A program made the position numbers and the translations under genes. From a virus: 64,000 nucleotides of DNA. Of this stretch, positions 53,317 through 57,993 are shown one piece after another. Every line of letters starts with the position of its first letter. Positions within the stretch are counted from its first letter, which is position 1. The notes below the pieces were generated by a model. The model worked only from the letters and a program-made list of their open reading frames with translations. It was not told the origin of the DNA and did not search any database. Location of the stretch: the IMG/VR virus record IMGVR_UViG_3300048583_000198, positions 1 to 64,000 of that record; one strand, written 5' to 3'.

Positions 53317-53528
53317 TACAGTTTTCCTGTGAGACGGATTTTCCACACTGGTTCCCATTCTGGATTGACTAGCGTGCAGAAGCCTATCGCCAGCTCCTGG
53401 ATCCAGATGTTGAGCCGCATTACCGGCATGAGCCAACCAGCCCTAGGGCAAAGCTGTGGACTACCGCTGTACGGGTTGTTGATGAGCACCGGACAGAAAC
53501 CAAACCAACCTTTGTGGGTGTACTTCAT
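53316..53528 (-). CDS. hypothetical protein
   Basis: Coupled on both sides (ATGA and TAATG). Confidence 0.65.
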   Translation of the reverse strand: MKYTHKGWFGFCPVLINNPYSGSPQLCPRAGWLMPVMRLNIWIQELAIGFCTLVNPEWEPVWKIRLTGKL

Positions 53529-53716
53529 TCAGGTGCGTCCTGTTCAAACTTCCGTTGGGCCACGTTTGCCGCTGCGTAGATCGTCAGGGCTAAGGTCGAC
53601 AAGGCTACGTATGTGCCGCCGTCGATTTTCCCGATGAACAGGGCTATCGCTCCCGTCACCTGAACGAAGACGCTCTGTTGGAACTTTGTGCTTTTCCAGT
53701 TGGTTGTGTCGTCCAT
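53525..53716 (-). CDS. putative holin
   Basis: 63 aa, WKSTKF start, two hydrophobic helices, YAAANVAQ, charged tail. Confidence 0.55.
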   Translation of the reverse strand: MDDTTNWKSTKFQQSVFVQVTGAIALFIGKIDGGTYVALSTLALTIYAAANVAQRKFEQDAPE

Positions 53717-53898
53717 CTTCATCCTCCCAGACATCCCACCCTGTTCGCATGTACTTGCGCCATGCCGGATTGCTCACCCGCACTCCAGCGGTGTTGGTCT
53801 TTGCTTCCGGGAGCAACGGCGGAGCTTCAGTTTCACCCTGGTTCGGGCTTTGCGACCCGAGTTCCCCACGCCTGCGGAGCAACCCTTTGTTGGCCATG

Positions 53899-54129
53899 TC
53901 AGAGCGCATTCCACTCATCCTCGGAGCCACCACTGAATCGTGGGGCGAGGTAGAGCTTACCGTCTTTCCGCTTCACGTAGCCATGCTTTTCGAGCGTCTT
54001 GGTCCGGAGGAATGCAGCCACTGCTGTCACCTGCAGTTCCTTGCCAAGCACCGCATACGATGCGTCAACCCAACAACCCTTGCACCACTTGGCCAAGAGG
54101 TTGACGAATGCCAGTTGCTTTACATTCAC
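53899..54129 (-). CDS. small winged-helix-like protein, first late gene
   Basis: GGAGG RBS; KTLEKHGYVKRKDGKLYLAP wing motif. Confidence 0.6.
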   Translation of the reverse strand: MNVKQLAFVNLLAKWCKGCWVDASYAVLGKELQVTAVAAFLRTKTLEKHGYVKRKDGKLYLAPRFSGGSEDEWNAL

Positions 54130-54157
54130 GTGCTTTGTCCTCCGTTAAGGTGAAGTG

Positions 54158-54186
54158 ATTCTGCATGAGCCCGTGATATTTAGCAA
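54158..54186 (-). promoter_or_regulatory. sigma70-type late promoter heading the late operon
   Basis: TTGCTA-17 nt-CAGAAT; same ATGCA.AAT context as the promoter at 36385. Confidence 0.55.
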
Positions 54187-54271
54187 GAGACTTAACGTCC
54201 ATTTTTTGAGGTTGAATTTTGGTCAGGTGGGAGTTTGAGAGTTTGAGACCTTCAAACTCGAAACCTCCCCC

Positions 54272-54303
54272 CCGGATTACACGTGCACTACGTGCACATC
54301 GGA
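54272..54303 (+). promoter_or_regulatory. vRNAP hairpin promoter P1
   Basis: CCGGATTACAC-GTGCAC-TAC-GTGCAC-ATC-GGA; template loop C-GTA-G centred at -11, predicted +1 54301. Confidence 0.8.
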
Positions 54304-54332
54304 CCAACCTCGGTCCTTCCATGGAGTTCATC

Positions 54333-54542
54333 ATGTCCCTCATCAAGACCGCCTTCTCTGGCATGGTCCAGAAGATGCAGCTCGAGAACGCACTGCAGCT
54401 GCAGAAGCACCAGCACCTGCGTCCTCCGCAGATCCGACTGCAGATCGCACAGGGCCTCACCGCCATCGACGAGCAGCTCGCAGCTGACACCAAGCTGAAG
54501 AAGCGCTTCGACACCATCACGCTCACGTTGCCCACAACCTGA
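54333..54542 (+). CDS. first early protein (hypothetical)
   Basis: GGAG RBS, strongly biased codons, directly after P1. Confidence 0.75.
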   Translation: MSLIKTAFSGMVQKMQLENALQLQKHQHLRPPQIRLQIAQGLTAIDEQLAADTKLKKRFDTITLTLPTT

Positions 54543-54573
54543 GCTAACGGCCTTCCCTCGCAAGAGGGAAGAG

Positions 54574-54605
54574 CCGGAATACACGTGGCCTTCGGCCACT
54601 CAGCG
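54574..54605 (+). promoter_or_regulatory. vRNAP hairpin promoter P2
   Basis: CCGGAATACAC-GTGGCC-TTC-GGCCAC-TCA-G; template loop C-GAA-G, predicted +1 54603. Confidence 0.78.
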
Positions 54606-54727
54606 AAGCAGGACGATAGATCCTGTCTCTGGTGCATTACGCTGAGGGAAGTGAGCAGTCCGTACCAACCGCCTGTTGTACCCTTCACAGCACGTCCCAG
54701 AGTCCCTCTATCGTTCCTGTCCTTCGC
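54603..54727 (+). ncRNA. candidate rod-shaped early ncRNA
   Basis: The 5' end at predicted +1 pairs with the 3' end through nested helices. Confidence 0.6.
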
Positions 54728-54765
54728 ATGAACACCTTTAACGGCTGTGCCCTCTTGGGCATTGT

Positions 54766-54798
54766 CCGGACTACACATGCGCATTCGCGCACGTCGGA
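54766..54798 (+). promoter_or_regulatory. vRNAP hairpin promoter P3
   Basis: CCGGACTACAC-ATGCGC-ATTC-GCGCAC-GTC-GGA; predicted +1 54796. Confidence 0.72.
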
Positions 54799-54834
54799 GT
54801 GCAATCCCGCACTTCGTTTCTCTGGAGAAAGTTC

Positions 54835-55092
54835 ATGAGCATTGGAAACATCGTCGAGAGCGCCAAGCCTGCTGGCAAGCGCGTCACCTACGGCATCCTC
54901 ATCAAGGCTGGCACGTTCAGCCTGAACGAGTGGGGCCTCACCGAGAGCGATGCGAAGCAGGTGCACGAGATCCTCGTGGCCCGTAAGGACGAGCCGTTCG
55001 AGCTGAACGGTCTCACCTTCGCTCGCCGTCCGCCGTCCGACCTGTCGGCGCAGCTGGCCGCGTTCAAGGCCAAGGCTCCGGCAGCCGTCTGA
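54835..55092 (+). CDS. early protein (hypothetical)
   Basis: GGAG RBS, biased codons, directly after P3. Confidence 0.75.
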   Translation: MSIGNIVESAKPAGKRVTYGILIKAGTFSLNEWGLTESDAKQVHEILVARKDEPFELNGLTFARRPPSDLSAQLAAFKAKAPAAV

Positions 55093-55145
55093 CCGGAAAC
55101 AGCAGCGTCCATCCCATCACGGGGTGGGCGCTGTTGTATTTTCGG
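55093..55145 (+). terminator. long hairpin between convergent genes
   Basis: ACAGCAGCGTCCATCCC-ATCAC-GGGGTGGGCGCTGTTGT-ATTTT. Confidence 0.6.
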
Positions 55146-55563
55146 AGTGTTCTGCAACACACGATAGACCAGCCCAGGCAGTGCGAGCAGCATTGCCATT
55201 GGGCGGCATCACGGCCAAAGGATTGATCATGTAGATACCACGCTGAATGCGCCGTATCAGATCACATTCCATTAAGGCTGGCAGATGATTCTGCACAAAG
55301 CGACTGTCCACTTCAGGGGACAGCAGCCTGGTGCGTACCACCTCATTCGTATCCACATTGCGTGCCTTCACCATGGCACGGAAGAGCTTAATGCTCGAGG
55401 GTGGGAGGGACGCGAGAGTATCAAGTAGGTCCATGCTTGCACCGTTTCGGTTGGAATCGCCTGTTCCCACAATGAGGAACGGCGGCTTGGCATCACGCAA
55501 TCGTCTGCGTCGGTGCGTCACCAACTCCTCATCGTAGGAGAGATTTAGGATGCTATTAGGCAT
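55117..55563 (-). CDS. winged-helix DNA-binding protein, RepL-like
   Basis: L.ECDLIRRIQRGIYMINP; lone - strand gene in the early region. Confidence 0.6.
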   Translation of the reverse strand: MPNSILNLSYDEELVTHRRRRLRDAKPPFLIVGTGDSNRNGASMDLLDTLASLPPSSIKLFRAMVKARNVDTNEVVRTRLLSPEVDSRFVQNHLPALMECDLIRRIQRGIYMINPLAVMPPNGNAARTAWAGLSCVAEHSENTTAPTP

Positions 55564-55712
55564 GGCATTAGTCTATGCCTTCAACGACTAACAAACAAGT
55601 AGTTAATACTAGGCAGCCCATCATTTCGTCTGGGCTACCAAGTATTACCTCGCTTGTAAGTGATTGATTTCCCTCACAACCCATCTGCTGATTCATTCTT
55701 AGGAGAACCAAC

Positions 55713-55877
55713 ATGTTGCTAGCTTTGCTCACGTTGACCGGTGTACTCAGCATCGTGCTGATGATCCGGTCTGTCTTCGTCGTGCATGACAATTTCCTGG
55801 GTGCTGTCCTCATGGGCATCTTCGGCTTTGTCAGCTTCGTTATCACCGCTGTGCTCACCAATGTGGTGTCGTCATGA
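55713..55877 (+). CDS. small two-helix membrane protein
   Basis: AGGAG RBS; 54 aa, mostly hydrophobic. Confidence 0.65.
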   Translation: MLLALLTLTGVLSIVLMIRSVFVVHDNFLGAVLMGIFGFVSFVITAVLTNVVSS

Positions 55878-56050
55878 ACCTCAAGGAGATGATGCCTCTC
55901 GAGTTGCATGAGCGTCGGCTCAAGCTGCTCAAAGAGGTGAAAGAGATTGACGAAGAATTTCGTCGTCGCATTCATCCCATCGTCACCACCATTGACGAGC
56001 ACCGTGCCAGGGCTGCGCATTACGCCAGCATTGGCAAGCGTCCGTACTAA
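55874..56050 (+). CDS. small hypothetical protein
   Basis: ATGA coupling; MNLKEMMPLELHERRLKLL..., 58 aa. Confidence 0.6.
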   Translation: MNLKEMMPLELHERRLKLLKEVKEIDEEFRRRIHPIVTTIDEHRARAAHYASIGKRPY

Positions 56051-56063
56051 CAGGAGAACTCAG

Positions 56064-56372
56064 ATGCTCAATGGCATCGCAGTGTTTGTCATGCTCACCA
56101 TGCTGTTCATGTGGTGCGGCAAGAAATGGCGGCAACGCCTTGTCGGGATGGGATTCCTGACAGACATCTCGGTGCACATCCTGTGTCAGCTACTGCTCGG
56201 CGGTGCCAATGAGGGCCGCCTTGCAGTGCTGTTCGGGTGTGTGCTGTTCAATTTGCACTTGATGACCTACCGCAAGCTCTGGGGCTATTCAGCCTTCGAA
56301 GAGGGAGCATGGGTTTTCCATCGTGGTCTGTTCAACTTCCGGAGGAACCATGGAACATCTCAGGCTGGATAA
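56064..56372 (+). CDS. early membrane protein
   Basis: AGGAG RBS; three hydrophobic segments. Confidence 0.7.
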   Translation: MLNGIAVFVMLTMLFMWCGKKWRQRLVGMGFLTDISVHILCQLLLGGANEGRLAVLFGCVLFNLHLMTYRKLWGYSAFEEGAWVFHRGLFNFRRNHGTSQAG

Positions 56373-57993
56373 CCAGCGTTCACATGCTGTGAGTCTCGAT
56401 CCAGACACACAGCACATCTTCCACTACGTGTGGATACGGGGCCGATGCAGCTTGGTAGAGCTGTTTCCCGTGTTCGCACGTAAGGTGGAAGGATTCCTGG
56501 AGAAGCTCGAGAGCTTGCTGGTGCAGGGCCATCTGCATACAGATCTCAAGAGCATCTGGGCCAGGGACCGACAGATCGTGTTCACCGAAACTCCGCTGTC
56601 TCGACCGGAAGAGAGTGACAGCTGGGTGCTCAAAGCTCTGAACGAGCAGGTGCACGTCGTCGGTGATGATTTTACGTGGAATGGTGCCATCCACATCAAT
56701 CGTGACTTTCAGTTGCAGTGGCACAAGATGACGCTCAAGCCCGGAGATCGCTTCTATTTGGGCCATTTCGAGGATTTTCGTGGCCGCATCTACTGCAAGG
56801 GCCACATCCTCACGTATCAGGGCACCGACTTTCAGAAGTCCCTGATTCGTACTGAGCCCTATCAAGTGACAGACCTCGAGTGGCTGCACATGGACGTAGC
56901 TCGTAGCTATGGACTAGACAAAGCCACATGGGCAGAGCGTCTGGCATGGAGCTTGGACCATCCTGAGCTGCAACAAGGTGCCAAGGAGCCCTTCCTGTAC
57001 AAGAGCGCCTGGGAAGCTCTGCAGAAGGCTCTCAGGGGTGAAATGATTGATCACCCTGTCAGTCTGGATGCCACGGCCTCTGGCATTCAGTGCCTGTCGC
57101 TTATGGCGCAGGATCCAGTGAGTGCCTTGGCCGTCAACCTGGGTAGCCAGGTGGTCAACAATCCGTATCGGAAAGTCCAGGAGGAGATGGGACCGTACGA
57201 CTACGAGCGTGTGAAGCAGGCCACGATGACGCACTTCTACGAGAGTGTGCTCACACCCTTGCAGCTGTTTGGCGATGACTATCCTAAGTTCCTGGAAGCC
57301 ATGGAGAAATCCATGCCAGGGCCTACGGCTATTCGTGATGCCATCGCCAGCTGCATGACGTACCAGGATCGGTACAGGTGGGTGATGATGGATGGGTATG
57401 AGGTCGACATGAAGGTGACCACGCCCATTGAATGCACCATGGATATCGGTGCTGGCCATCAGATGACGTGGATAGAGCATCGACAAGCAGCCGTGGCCAC
57501 CAAGGGGCTCACTGCCAATGTGACGCATAGCCTGGATGCCCTCGTTCTGAGGGAAGTGCTGCGTCGTACCCACTGTCCCTACCAGTGGTACCAGCATGAA
57601 ACGCCTTTCGAAGAGCTGCGTGAGAAGGACATCCTGCTCATGCAGAGCATCATTCGGTGGCGACAGACTCAATTCCTGTCATTCGAGTTCATGGACCATT
57701 GTGATGGCATGAACCAGCATCTCGTTCCTCGAGAGCTGAGAGAGGCCGTGGACGCACGTACAAGCGCCGATTGCATGTACATCCAGCCCATCCACGACTG
57801 CTATCGAGTGAAAGCCAATGACGCCAGCCGCCTCTTCCAGATTGTTCGGGAAGTGATGGCTGACTTGGCGTATGCCAAGACGGCGGAATGGCTGCTGCCT
57901 CAGCTCGGATACAAAGGCAGCATCAAGGACGATGAATGCAGGAGAACGGCATTGAAGGAGCAAGTCCTTAATAGCCTCTACCTGATATGTTAG
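56350..57993 (+). CDS. T7-like RNA polymerase; N4 RNAP II subunits 1 and 2 fused in one chain
   Basis: DFRGRIY, YQG, DVARSYGLDK, motif A LDATASGIQ, motif B RVKQATMTHFY, HSLDA, motif C IHDCY; GGAGG RBS. Confidence 0.9.
   Translation: MEHLRLDNQRSHAVSLDPDTQHIFHYVWIRGRCSLVELFPVFARKVEGFLEKLESLLVQGHLHTDLKSIWARDRQIVFTETPLSRPEESDSWVLKALNEQVHVVGDDFTWNGAIHINRDFQLQWHKMTLKPGDRFYLGHFEDFRGRIYCKGHILTYQGTDFQKSLIRTEPYQVTDLEWLHMDVARSYGLDKATWAERLAWSLDHPELQQGAKEPFLYKSAWEALQKALRGEMIDHPVSLDATASGIQCLSLMAQDPVSALAVNLGSQVVNNPYRKVQEEMGPYDYERVKQATMTHFYESVLTPLQLFGDDYPKFLEAMEKSMPGPTAIRDAIASCMTYQDRYRWVMMDGYEVDMKVTTPIECTMDIGAGHQMTWIEHRQAAVATKGLTANVTHSLDALVLREVLRRTHCPYQWYQHETPFEELREKDILLMQSIIRWRQTQFLSFEFMDHCDGMNQHLVPRELREAVDARTSADCMYIQPIHDCYRVKANDASRLFQIVREVMADLAYAKTAEWLLPQLGYKGSIKDDECRRTALKEQVLNSLYLIC

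What the first reader, a model, noticed from the sequence alone, without database searches (positions are those of the whole stretch)
54603..54727. A virion-RNAP promoter apparently dedicated to a ~125-nt rod-shaped non-coding RNA
Seen: P1 and P3 are each followed by an RBS and gene, but P2 is not. From the predicted +1 the sequence folds end to end: GCGAAG/CTTCGC (54603-08/54722-27), CAGGA/TCCTG, CGATAGA/TCTATCG, a pyrimidine-rich internal loop (TCCTGT/TCCC), CTCTGG/CCAGAG, TGAGGG/CCTTCA, GCAG/CTGT. The terminal helix starts exactly at +1. Inference: an RNA made immediately after injection by the injected polymerase, needing no host transcription or translation. It could be a decoy for host RNAP (6S-like), a defence sensor or an RNA-binding protein. 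I know of no such RNA described in N4-like phages.
Basis: partly seen in the sequence, partly recalled or inferred. Interest (0 to 1): 0.8.

Follow-up and report, generated by a model that had tools for sequence, protein, structure and literature searches.

The report
Gene-less early hairpin RNA unit, N4-like phage
An uncultured N4-like phage has, among the three start signals for its injected RNA polymerase, one that is followed by a 125-base self-pairing hairpin instead of a gene; it probably makes a folded non-coding RNA, but no transcript has been seen and its job is unknown.

Summary
Bases 54603-54727 fold end to end with the helices named (MFE -47.3 kcal/mol, z -4.6). The fold starts 11 bases after the loop centre of a hairpin motif that occurs only three times in the 72-kb genome. 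No ribosome site or conserved reading frame lies inside it. The phage encodes a virion RNA polymerase.

Two close relatives keep the hairpin. L002 folds better on the + strand (-60.3, z -6.1). A DNA contig of run X14 adds 23 bases at the tip.

The support is limited:
- No base pair changed on both sides.
- The window's copy is no more stable than random mutants of L002's copy.
- Relatives at 46-65% protein identity lack the element.
- No transcript was seen.
- The pyrimidine-rich internal loop is closed in L002, so a 6S-like mimic is unlikely.
- A helix starting at +1 is shared by all three early units.

Best reading, at 0.38: a gene-less early unit that makes a stable hairpin RNA. A cis-acting leader or processing element is nearly as likely. 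Unchecked notes from this scan report gene-less early units in other N4-like phages.

The parts
54548..54576 (+). Hairpin t1 behind gene 1 (12 pairs, GCAA loop), ending 3 bases before TACAC of P2. It marks the end of the first early unit.
   Evidence: MFE -23.1, z -5.3. 5 of 12 pairs carry compensatory double changes between window and L002, and 24 of 24 cells are paired.
54580..54599 (+). Promoter P2: TACAC, then a 6-bp stem with a 3-nt loop (GTGGCC TTC GGCCAC). The loop centre is at 54592.
   Evidence: One of only three TACAC+stem sites in the 72-kb genome. Identical in L002. No difference is listed for X14.
54603..54727 (+). The 125-nt imperfect hairpin ('rod'), whose first base is the predicted +1.
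   Evidence: fold, z -4.6. (L002 version -60.3, z -6.1). (47 pairs, 94.6% of cells paired). (X14 version with 23 extra bases at the tip).
54728..54741 (+). Unpaired 14-nt linker. It begins with ATG 54728, which has no ribosome site in front.
   Evidence: The duplex test against the early-gene start regions gave background-level scores.
54742..54768 (+). Hairpin t2 (GC-rich, UCUU loop), ending just before TACAC of P3. It may be the end of the P2 unit, but it has no U-run.
   Evidence: MFE -15.8, z -3.3. Not called terminator-like. The only change in relatives is in its loop (54754, X14).
54772..54791 (+). Promoter P3: TACAC, one further base (A), then a 5-bp stem with a 4-nt loop.
54795..54816 (+). 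5' hairpin of the P3 transcript, starting at its predicted +1. It is followed by GGAGAA and ATG 54835.
   Evidence: MFE -11.7, z -4.6.. Relatives keep a hairpin here with different stem letters.
54835..55092 (+). Conserved 85-aa early gene, with its own promoter P3.
   Evidence: 11 homologues at 60-96% identity. Alignment A1. No Pfam or PHROG family.
55096..55143 (+). Long perfect hairpin followed by UUGUAUUUUC, a likely true terminator of the early units.
   Evidence: MFE -32.9, z -6.9.
54283..54316 (+). Promoter P1 hairpin (54283-97) and the 5' hairpin of its transcript (54301-16). Included for comparison.
54333..54542 (+). Gene 1 (69 aa), the first early unit.
   Evidence: Homologues stand upstream of the 85-aa gene in L002, L004, L007 and L011.

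Best explanation
The stretch is the body of a gene-less early transcription unit of an uncultured N4-like phage. The unit consists of hairpin promoter P2, a 125-nt imperfect hairpin RNA on the + strand that starts at or within 2-3 bases of +1, a 14-nt single-stranded linker, and a small GC hairpin.

Shown:
- the promoter motif;
- the fold;
- the absence of coding;
- retention of the hairpin in two close relatives.

Inferred:
- The injected virion RNA polymerase transcribes it in the first minutes of infection.
- The product is released as a discrete, stable RNA of about 125-170 nt, either by stopping at the small hairpin or by processing.
- It works through its long double-stranded stem. The tip tolerates a 23-base insertion and the internal loop can be open or closed.
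- The stem acts as a competitor or decoy for a host factor that binds double-stranded RNA, such as an RNase III-type nuclease or an RNA-sensing defence. This would need no translation.
For: - Promoter: TACAC plus a 5-6-bp stem occurs only at 54283, 54585 and 54778 in 72,442 bp. Three of 3 CCGGANTACAC matches in the window are these sites. A virion RNA polymerase is encoded (phrog_2206, E 7.6e-252).
- Fold: z -4.58, and stable in a longer context.
- Not coding: there is no SD plus start. L002 differs in length by 1 base, so frames are not kept. Of the 4 substitutions before the indel, 3 change the amino acid in the only long frame.
- Relatives: the L002 copy folds to -60.3 kcal/mol with z -6.13 on the + strand, against -52.0 with z -3.78 on the - strand. 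It has two U.G pairs (columns 24-101 and 15-109) that would be mismatches on the other strand.
- 1 of 2000 random mutants of the window copy reaches L002's stability.
- L002-specific changes lie in a loop, and X14's 23 extra bases lie at the tip.
- Unit architecture: the flanking hairpin t1 has 5 of 12 compensatory pairs. The 85-aa gene has its own promoter P3, as in all relatives, so P2 is not needed for it.
- No other copy and no antisense target exists in the genome.
Against: - No transcript has been seen.
- 0 of 47 pairs changed on both sides, so there is no true covariation.
- All 10 differences from L002 lie in the 3' part. Seven sit within 20 bases and may be one event.
- Read the other way, the window copy (-47.3) is typical of random mutants of L002: 45% are as stable. 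The window lineage may be drifting.
- The window's - strand folds better than its + strand.
- The hairpin behind the rod has no U-run, unlike the terminator at 55096-55143, so read-through into the 85-aa gene is plausible.
- The element is absent from 9 of 10 fetched relatives (L003-L011). It was not found by a 21-mer in the viral or genome collections.
- The decoy function has no direct evidence at all.
Confidence: 0.38

Rival explanations
1. Cis-acting leader or processing element. P1, P2 and P3 give nested transcripts that all end at the strong terminator at 55096-55143. The rod is then the 5' end of the P2 mRNA for the 85-aa gene, and an internal hairpin of the P1 mRNA. It would protect the 5' end from decay, or be cut by RNase III as the intercistronic hairpins of T7 early RNA are (recalled, not from a call).
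For: - t1 and t2 lack U-runs, while the hairpin after the 85-aa gene has one.
- All three early transcripts begin with a hairpin at the predicted +1. Relatives keep a 5' hairpin before the 85-aa gene with varying stem letters. The rod may be an enlarged version of a general 5' cap-like hairpin.
- LUZ7 drives its key early gene from two tandem early promoters (PMC9163698, passage).
- The lower helix has 30 pairs in L002, long enough for RNase III.
Against: - P3 with its own short 5' hairpin sits between the rod and the gene, and is sufficient in all relatives.
- A 16-22-nt hairpin does the 5' job at P1 and P3, so 125 nt with 47 pairs is more than this role needs.
- A processing site would not need its own promoter 3 bases upstream.
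Confidence: 0.3
2. By-product of a promoter whose job is mechanical. P2 loads the injected polymerase so that transcription pulls the genome into the cell. The self-pairing of the nascent RNA only keeps it off the template, because the N4 polymerase lacks the RNA-separation part of T7 RNA polymerase and needs host SSB for transcript displacement.
For: - The N4 review states that the first ~500 bp enter first, that early transcription brings in the genome, and that transcript displacement depends on EcoSSB (PMC4496689, passages).
- All three promoters lie within about 530 bp.
- All three transcripts start with a hairpin.
Against: - Short hairpins suffice at P1 and P3.
- This does not explain a 47-pair stem, or its greater stability in L002.
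- The physical genome end was not determined here.
Confidence: 0.1
3. A DNA-level element: an imperfect palindrome acting as a cruciform, origin or terminus-related site near the genome end. Any RNA made from it would be irrelevant.
For: - Both strands fold.
- The DNA fold has z -3.39.
- It lies close to the junction between the leftward late genes and the rightward early genes.
Against: - L002's gains in stability are partly U.G pairs that exist only on the + strand as RNA.
- The DNA-parameter centroid structure is weak (-4.5).
- The start coincides with a promoter's +1.
Confidence: 0.07
4. A neutral leftover: a palindromic insertion or duplication scar in a hypervariable slot, with no function.
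For: - Relatives carry other things in this slot. L004 and L007 have small ORFs behind the gene 1 homologue, L005 has a related small ORF upstream of the 85-aa gene, and L011 has a different hairpin.
- The element has a narrow distribution.
- The reverse simulation is compatible with drift.
Against: - It carries a full copy of the promoter motif, with a perfectly conserved promoter and 5' arm in three variants.
- z is -6.1 in L002.
- No other copies exist that would mark a mobile element.
Confidence: 0.08
5. It encodes, or controls translation of, a small protein. The candidate is the 36-codon frame from ATG 54728, which starts right after the rod and ends in a TGA that overlaps ATG 54835.
For: - The stop and the next gene's start overlap as ATGA.
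- The only two substitutions seen in this frame in relatives (54772 in L002, 54754 in X14) are synonymous third positions (my reading of the codons).
Against: - There is no ribosome site, although the neighbouring genes have GGAG.
- The frame runs through promoter P3 and its 5' hairpin, which explain the conservation by themselves.
- Two substitutions are too few to judge.
- Frames through the rod itself are not kept.
Confidence: 0.04

Closest known systems
Early transcription units P1-P3 of coliphage N4 (virion RNA polymerase hairpin promoters)
   Same: Three rightward hairpin promoters are clustered at the start of the early region. Each has a short stem with a 3-nt loop and sequence shared between the copies. 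A giant virion RNA polymerase is encoded (PMC4496689, passages).
   Different: The shared box is TACAC directly 5' of the stem, and the stems differ in sequence. One unit has no gene. The passages I read describe no gene-less unit for N4.
Putative small RNAs sRNA1-3 of Pseudomonas phage LUZ7 (N4-like)
   Same: Short non-coding transcripts of an N4-like phage (PMC9163698, passage).
   Different: Those are made late, between orf69 and orf70, and not from an early hairpin promoter. No sequence or Rfam link exists.
RNase III processing hairpins of T7 early RNA, including the one in the leader behind promoters A1-A3 (recalled, not from a call)
   Same: A long imperfect hairpin lies behind early promoters and between early cistrons of a podovirus.
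   Different: T7 sites are about half as long and have no promoter of their own 3 bases upstream. Cleavage was not tested here.
Adenovirus VA RNA I (recalled)
   Same: A viral RNA of about 160 nt, mostly double-stranded, with paired 5' and 3' ends. It is made without need of viral protein synthesis and works as a decoy for a dsRNA-activated host defence enzyme.
   Different: It comes from a eukaryotic virus and is a Pol III product with a specific central domain. The likeness is functional only and has no evidence here.
phi29 pRNA (recalled; the Rfam library searched gave no match)
   Same: A structured RNA of about 120-170 nt, encoded at the left end of a podovirus genome behind its own early promoter, with paired 5' and 3' ends.
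   Different: pRNA is a branched RNA that forms rings on the packaging motor of protein-primed phages. No Rfam match was found here, and this RNA is an unbranched rod.
6S RNA
   Same: Rod shape with a closing stem made of the two ends.
   Different: The rod is shorter, at 125 nt against about 180. It has no conserved large central bubble, because the window's loop is closed in L002. No Rfam match was found.

Membership tests
N4-type virion-RNA-polymerase hairpin promoter (for P2) | Inverted repeat giving a 5-7-bp stem with a 3-nt loop | tested here: met
   6-bp stem and 3-nt loop at 54585-54599.
N4-type virion-RNA-polymerase hairpin promoter (for P2) | Sequence shared among the phage's few early promoters, clustered in the first-entering part of the genome and pointing rightward | tested here: inconclusive
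   TACAC stands before the stem in 3 of 3 sites, within 505 bp, and nowhere else in 72 kb. The physical genome end was not determined.
N4-type virion-RNA-polymerase hairpin promoter (for P2) | The phage encodes and packages a giant T7-like RNA polymerase | tested here: met
   A 3324-aa ORF matches phrog_2206 'virion RNA polymerase', E 7.6e-252. Packaging itself is not testable.
N4-type virion-RNA-polymerase hairpin promoter (for P2) | Mapped transcription start about 11 nt from the loop centre | not testable with these tools
   No raw RNA reads were laid. In all three units a new helix begins 3 bases after the promoter stem, which is self-consistent but indirect.
6S RNA | Match to the Rfam 6S models | tested here: not met
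   No family matches the rod at E <= 10.
6S RNA | Conserved large central bubble that mimics an open promoter | tested here: not met
   The window's loop (UCCUGU/UCCC) is paired in L002. The largest loops there are 5 nt.
RNase III substrate (T7-type processing hairpin) | About two turns or more of mostly continuous double-stranded RNA | tested here: met
   The lower helix has 30 pairs with small bulges in L002.
RNase III substrate (T7-type processing hairpin) | Cleavage by RNase III, and processed ends in vivo | not testable with these tools
   -
Intrinsic (hairpin plus U-run) terminator, for the small hairpin t2 | GC-rich stem followed by a run of U | tested here: not met
   The stem is present (z -3.3), but only AUUGU follows. 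The scan does not list it.
Small protein-coding gene | Start codon with a ribosome site, and a frame kept in relatives | tested here: not met
   There is no SD. A 1-base indel shifts the frames, and the changes are mostly non-synonymous.
phi29-type pRNA | Match to the Rfam pRNA model, and a branched fold with ring-forming loops | tested here: not met
   No Rfam match. The fold is unbranched, with 0 branch points in model R1.

The most novel reading that the evidence does not exclude
The rod is a translation-independent immune decoy. As one of the first RNAs made by the injected polymerase, it would occupy a host sensor or nuclease that recognises double-stranded or structured phage RNA before any phage protein exists. 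That would make it a bacterial-virus counterpart of adenovirus VA RNA. Together with the unchecked notes of gene-less early units in other N4-like phages, it would point to a class of immediate-early anti-defence RNAs in Schitoviridae.
Probability: 0.12. Interest if true: 0.85.

Novelty: new variant of a known kind. Interest (0 to 1): 0.5.

Why it matters
Phages that inject their own RNA polymerase can act on the host before any protein is made. An RNA product of that polymerase would be the fastest possible effector.

Six literature searches listed no paper describing a non-coding RNA made from an early virion-polymerase promoter of an N4-like phage. I read passages from two of the listed papers and the abstract and outline of a third. 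The only small RNAs I found described for this group are late ones in LUZ7.

If the unit is confirmed, it would give a compact and testable case: promoter, 125-nt RNA, natural variants with an open or closed loop, and an extended tip.

If it turns out to be only a leader, it still documents a design rule of these early units: a hairpin before the promoter, the promoter hairpin, then an RNA hairpin at +1.

Tried and rejected
- **Rfam.** The search at E <= 10 on 53500-56000, both strands, gave three weak chance hits elsewhere and none on the rod.
- **Cultured phages.** blastn of 54200-55100 against 50,697 phage records found no match.
- **Single-protein scans.** Scans of viral contigs with gene 1, the 85-aa protein and the RNA polymerase II ORF found no relatives.
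- **21-mer scan.** The 21-mer from the rod's 5' end had 0 exact hits in viral contigs and 0 in genome contigs.
- **Covariance model.** Model R1, built from the 2 rods, found only the window's own copy in 91,503 bases of window plus L003-L011 at E <= 10.
- **Antisense or anti-Shine-Dalgarno idea**, a lead from note e1-6122080. The rod and tail have only chance matches of <= 12 nt in the genome. Duplex energies of the tail with the start regions of gene 1 and the 85-aa gene are -10.2 and -11.6 kcal/mol, and 38% and 23% of background windows do as well. Rejected for this phage.
- **RNA-library contigs.** I laid 4 of the 24 runs listed. Of the 6 pieces from the three RNA runs X16, X18 and X19, none overlaps 54603-54727. 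They cover gene 1 and the 85-aa gene.
- **Small shares in unlaid runs** are not used as evidence of habitat or expression.
- **L011 as an analogous RNA.** Its 144-nt slot folds into a ~95-nt hairpin (z -4.6). However, its 3' arm abuts the conserved 5' hairpin, exactly where L004 and L007 have long-stem hairpins. I do not count it as a counterpart.
- **The 85-aa protein.** The profile search against solved structures gave nothing below E 0.066. The AlphaFold model was weak (pLDDT 67.7), and I ran no fold search.
- **The X14 variant** was not folded, because that would have meant typing a changed sequence. My remark that its inserted letters look self-complementary is by eye only.
- **Supplementary files** of the LUZ7 paper (TSS and terminator tables) were not opened. 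They might list gene-less early start sites.

Full report
**Setting.** The window is bases 1-64000 of a 72,442-bp uncultured virus record. It encodes a 3324-aa protein that matches the PHROG family 'virion RNA polymerase' (E 7.6e-252). It also encodes a single-chain T7-like RNA polymerase that is 27-29% identical to the RNA polymerase II subunits of N4-like phages. The leftward genes end at 54129, and the rightward genes begin at 54333.

**The promoters.** A script that looked for TACA/ACAC next to a perfect 4-7-bp stem listed many weak 4-bp chance sites. Only three sites have TACAC directly before a 5-6-bp stem: 54283, 54585 and 54778, all on the + strand and within 505 bp. The longer box CCGGANTACAC has 3 matches in the window, all exact and all at these sites. 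The tool's chance figure of 2.65 refers to up to one mismatch. Relatives fetched through the downstream gene carry the same design, (T)ACAC followed by a short stem with a 3-nt loop, before that gene (L006, L008, L009, L010) or before gene 1 (L011).

According to the N4 review, the three N4 early promoters share -17 to +1 and have inverted repeats around a heptamer centred at -11 (PMC4496689, passages). In LUZ7 the start lies 13-14 nt from the hairpin centre (PMC9163698, passage), which would give 54605/6.

**The fold.** The 125 bases fold end to end, with MFE -47.3 kcal/mol. Shuffles give -32.1 +/- 3.3, so z is -4.58 and 0 of 200 shuffles do as well. The same structure is kept in a 248-nt context. 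The reverse strand folds about as well (-54.3, z -4.42), and DNA parameters give z -3.39. Rfam gives nothing on the rod at E <= 10.

**Coding.** No start codon with a ribosome site lies between 54603 and 54770. In L002 the rod is one base longer, so any frame through it shifts. There a different, 88-codon frame opens by fusion. In the only long frame, 3 of the 4 substitutions before the indel change the amino acid. The stretch is not coding.

**Relatives.** These gave 9 metagenome loci and 1 viral locus.

- **L002.** It aligns with window 53898-57374 at 95.4% identity and is the only fetched locus that holds the rod.
  - It differs from the window at 10 positions, all at or after 54659. The promoter and the 5' arm (54576-58) are identical.
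  - Its copy folds to -60.3 kcal/mol with z -6.13 on the + strand, but only to -52.0 with z -3.78 on the - strand.
  - On L002's structure, 47 pairs are drawn and 94.6% of cells pair, against 37-52% when partners are slid.
  - The changes close the window's pyrimidine-rich internal loop (pairs 21-104, 22-103 and 24-101, the last a U.G). They also add G57-C70 and turn U15-A into U15.G.
  - No pair changed on both sides.
- **X14.** The DNA contig of this run (a biofilter metagenome) covers 54546-55100.
  - It has the L002-type letters at 54659, 54703-5, 54710, 54719/20 and 54722.
  - It lacks L002's two loop changes.
  - It carries insertions totalling 23 bases between 54660 and 54669, at the tip of the hairpin.
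  - Its 5' arm shows no difference.
- **More distant relatives.** L003-L011 (46-65% protein identity) lack the rod by eye and by covariance model R1.
  - L004 and L007 have small ORFs in the slot between gene 1 and the 85-aa gene, and L005 has a related small ORF upstream of that gene.
  - In L006 and L008-L010 the 85-aa gene is the first gene behind the promoter.

**How strong is the conservation?** Starting from the window copy, 2000 random mutants with 9 substitutions and 1 insertion average -39.2 +/- 5.5 kcal/mol, and 1 of 2000 reaches L002's value. On the - strand 6.7% do. Run the other way, random mutants of L002 average -46.6 +/- 6.1, and 45% are as stable as the window copy.

The comparison therefore shows one of two things: selection for a better + strand hairpin in the L002/X14 lineage, or drift in the window lineage. 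Three unrooted variants cannot decide between them. What remains solid is this:
- The z-scores are high in both copies.
- The lineage-specific changes of L002 (a loop) and X14 (the tip) avoid the stems.
- The + strand asymmetry in L002 agrees with the direction of the promoter.

Seven of the ten differences lie within 20 bases and may be a single event.

**Context that changes the reading.**
- A helix starting at the predicted +1 is not peculiar to P2. The P1 transcript begins with GGACC-N6-GGUCC at 54301-16 (z -2.7), and the P3 transcript with an 8-bp hairpin at 54795-54816 (z -4.6). In all three units, three bases separate the promoter stem from this helix.
- Relatives keep a hairpin at this place before the 85-aa gene, with different stem letters.
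- Each promoter is preceded by a hairpin that ends at the CCGG of the box. For the one before P2, 5 of 12 pairs carry compensatory double changes between the window and L002, and all 24 cells pair. Part of the 'box' is therefore a stem. In L002 only P1 keeps the exact box.

The early region thus reads as three modules: upstream hairpin, TACAC, promoter hairpin, RNA hairpin at +1, cargo. The cargo is gene 1 (69 aa) behind P1, nothing behind P2, and the 85-aa gene behind P3. A strong terminator-like hairpin with a U-run follows at 55096-55143 (z -6.9).

**Mechanism.** The tip accepts 23 extra bases and the internal loop can be open or closed. Whatever the RNA does, it therefore depends on its long double-stranded stem or on its ends, not on a specific loop. 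This argues against a 6S-like open-promoter mimic.

Two readings are close:
- **(a) A discrete, stable hairpin RNA that acts in trans.** My pick is competition for a host double-strand-RNA-binding nuclease or sensor.
  - In favour: P2 exists, P3 is sufficient for the 85-aa gene, and the stem is far longer than the 5' hairpins of P1 and P3.
- **(b) A cis element of nested early transcripts**, serving as 5' protection or an RNase III site.
  - In favour: the hairpins behind gene 1 and behind the rod have no U-run, and LUZ7 uses tandem early promoters for its key early gene.

Lesser options are:
- a mechanical role, either in transcription-driven DNA entry or in keeping the transcript off the template (N4 review passages);
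- a DNA-level palindrome;
- a neutral leftover;
- the 36-codon frame from ATG 54728.

**Literature.** Six searches listed no paper describing an early virion-polymerase non-coding RNA in N4-like phages.
- I read passages of PMC9163698 (LUZ7: late small RNAs only) and of PMC4496689 (the N4 review).
- I read the abstract and outline of the 2026 Migulavirinae preprint, which covers protein anti-defence genes only.
- Comparisons with T7 RNase III sites, VA RNA, phi29 pRNA and 5' hairpin stabilisation are recalled, not taken from calls.

**Earlier scan notes.** Unchecked AI notes report gene-less units behind hairpin promoters in other N4-like phages (e1-5907678, e1-6122080). I tested the anti-Shine-Dalgarno idea of the latter on this phage, and it fails here.

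**Verdict.** The element is a real, lineage-restricted, non-coding structured element behind a genuine early promoter. Its expression as a discrete RNA, and its function, are unproven.

Noticed in passing
window 54548-54576: The hairpin between gene 1 and P2 shows 5 compensatory double changes in 12 pairs between the window and L002 (24 of 24 cells paired). Its outer stem uses the CCGG of the supposed CCGGANTACAC promoter box, and L002's P2 lacks that box. Part of the box is therefore a stem, not a promoter element.
   Followed up: yes
window 54301-54316, 54603-54727, 54795-54816; L003-L011 upstream of the 85-aa gene: Every predicted early transcript begins with an RNA hairpin three bases after the promoter stem. 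Relatives keep a hairpin of the GATGC-N5/6-GCATC kind before the 85-aa gene, with varying stem letters. This may be a general 5' design of the early RNAs in this clade.
   Followed up: partly
window 54266-54273; L006, L008, L009, L010, L011: A run of 6-8 C lies shortly upstream of the first hairpin promoter in the window and in five relatives. It may mark the genome end or be part of the first promoter module.
   Followed up: no
window 55117-56020 (- strand): Two leftward ORFs of 148 and 150 aa sit between the early units and the rightward RNA polymerase II region. The first has a weak RepL-like helix-turn-helix hit (E 0.0017, below the cut-off). L011 has rightward small ORFs there instead, so this looks like an inserted module.
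   Followed up: partly
window 56350-57990: RNA polymerase II is encoded as one 547-aa chain. tblastn matches span both subunit genes of N4-like phages at 27-29% identity.
   Followed up: partly
L011 3841-3984: The 144-nt gap between the gene 1 homologue and the 85-aa gene folds into a hairpin of about 95 nt (z -4.6). It has no sequence likeness to the window's rod. Its 3' arm abuts the conserved 5' hairpin, so it may be a long promoter or terminator hairpin rather than a counterpart.
   Followed up: partly
window 54728-54838: A 36-codon frame starts right after the rod and ends in a TGA that overlaps the ATG of the 85-aa gene. The only two substitutions seen in relatives (54754, 54772) are synonymous third positions. 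There is no ribosome site, and the frame runs through promoter P3.
   Followed up: partly
window 54788 and 54806: Contigs of two RNA libraries from different studies (X16, X18) begin at 54788 and 54806, with no loose end, while the DNA contig of X14 runs on upstream. This is a weak hint that RNA cover of the 85-aa gene starts near P3's predicted start (54795).
   Followed up: no
window 54835-55092: The 85-aa early protein is conserved (11 homologues, 29 invariant columns) but has no Pfam or PHROG family and no solved relative. The AlphaFold model has a beta-beta-alpha-beta-beta-alpha order at pLDDT 67.7.
   Followed up: partly
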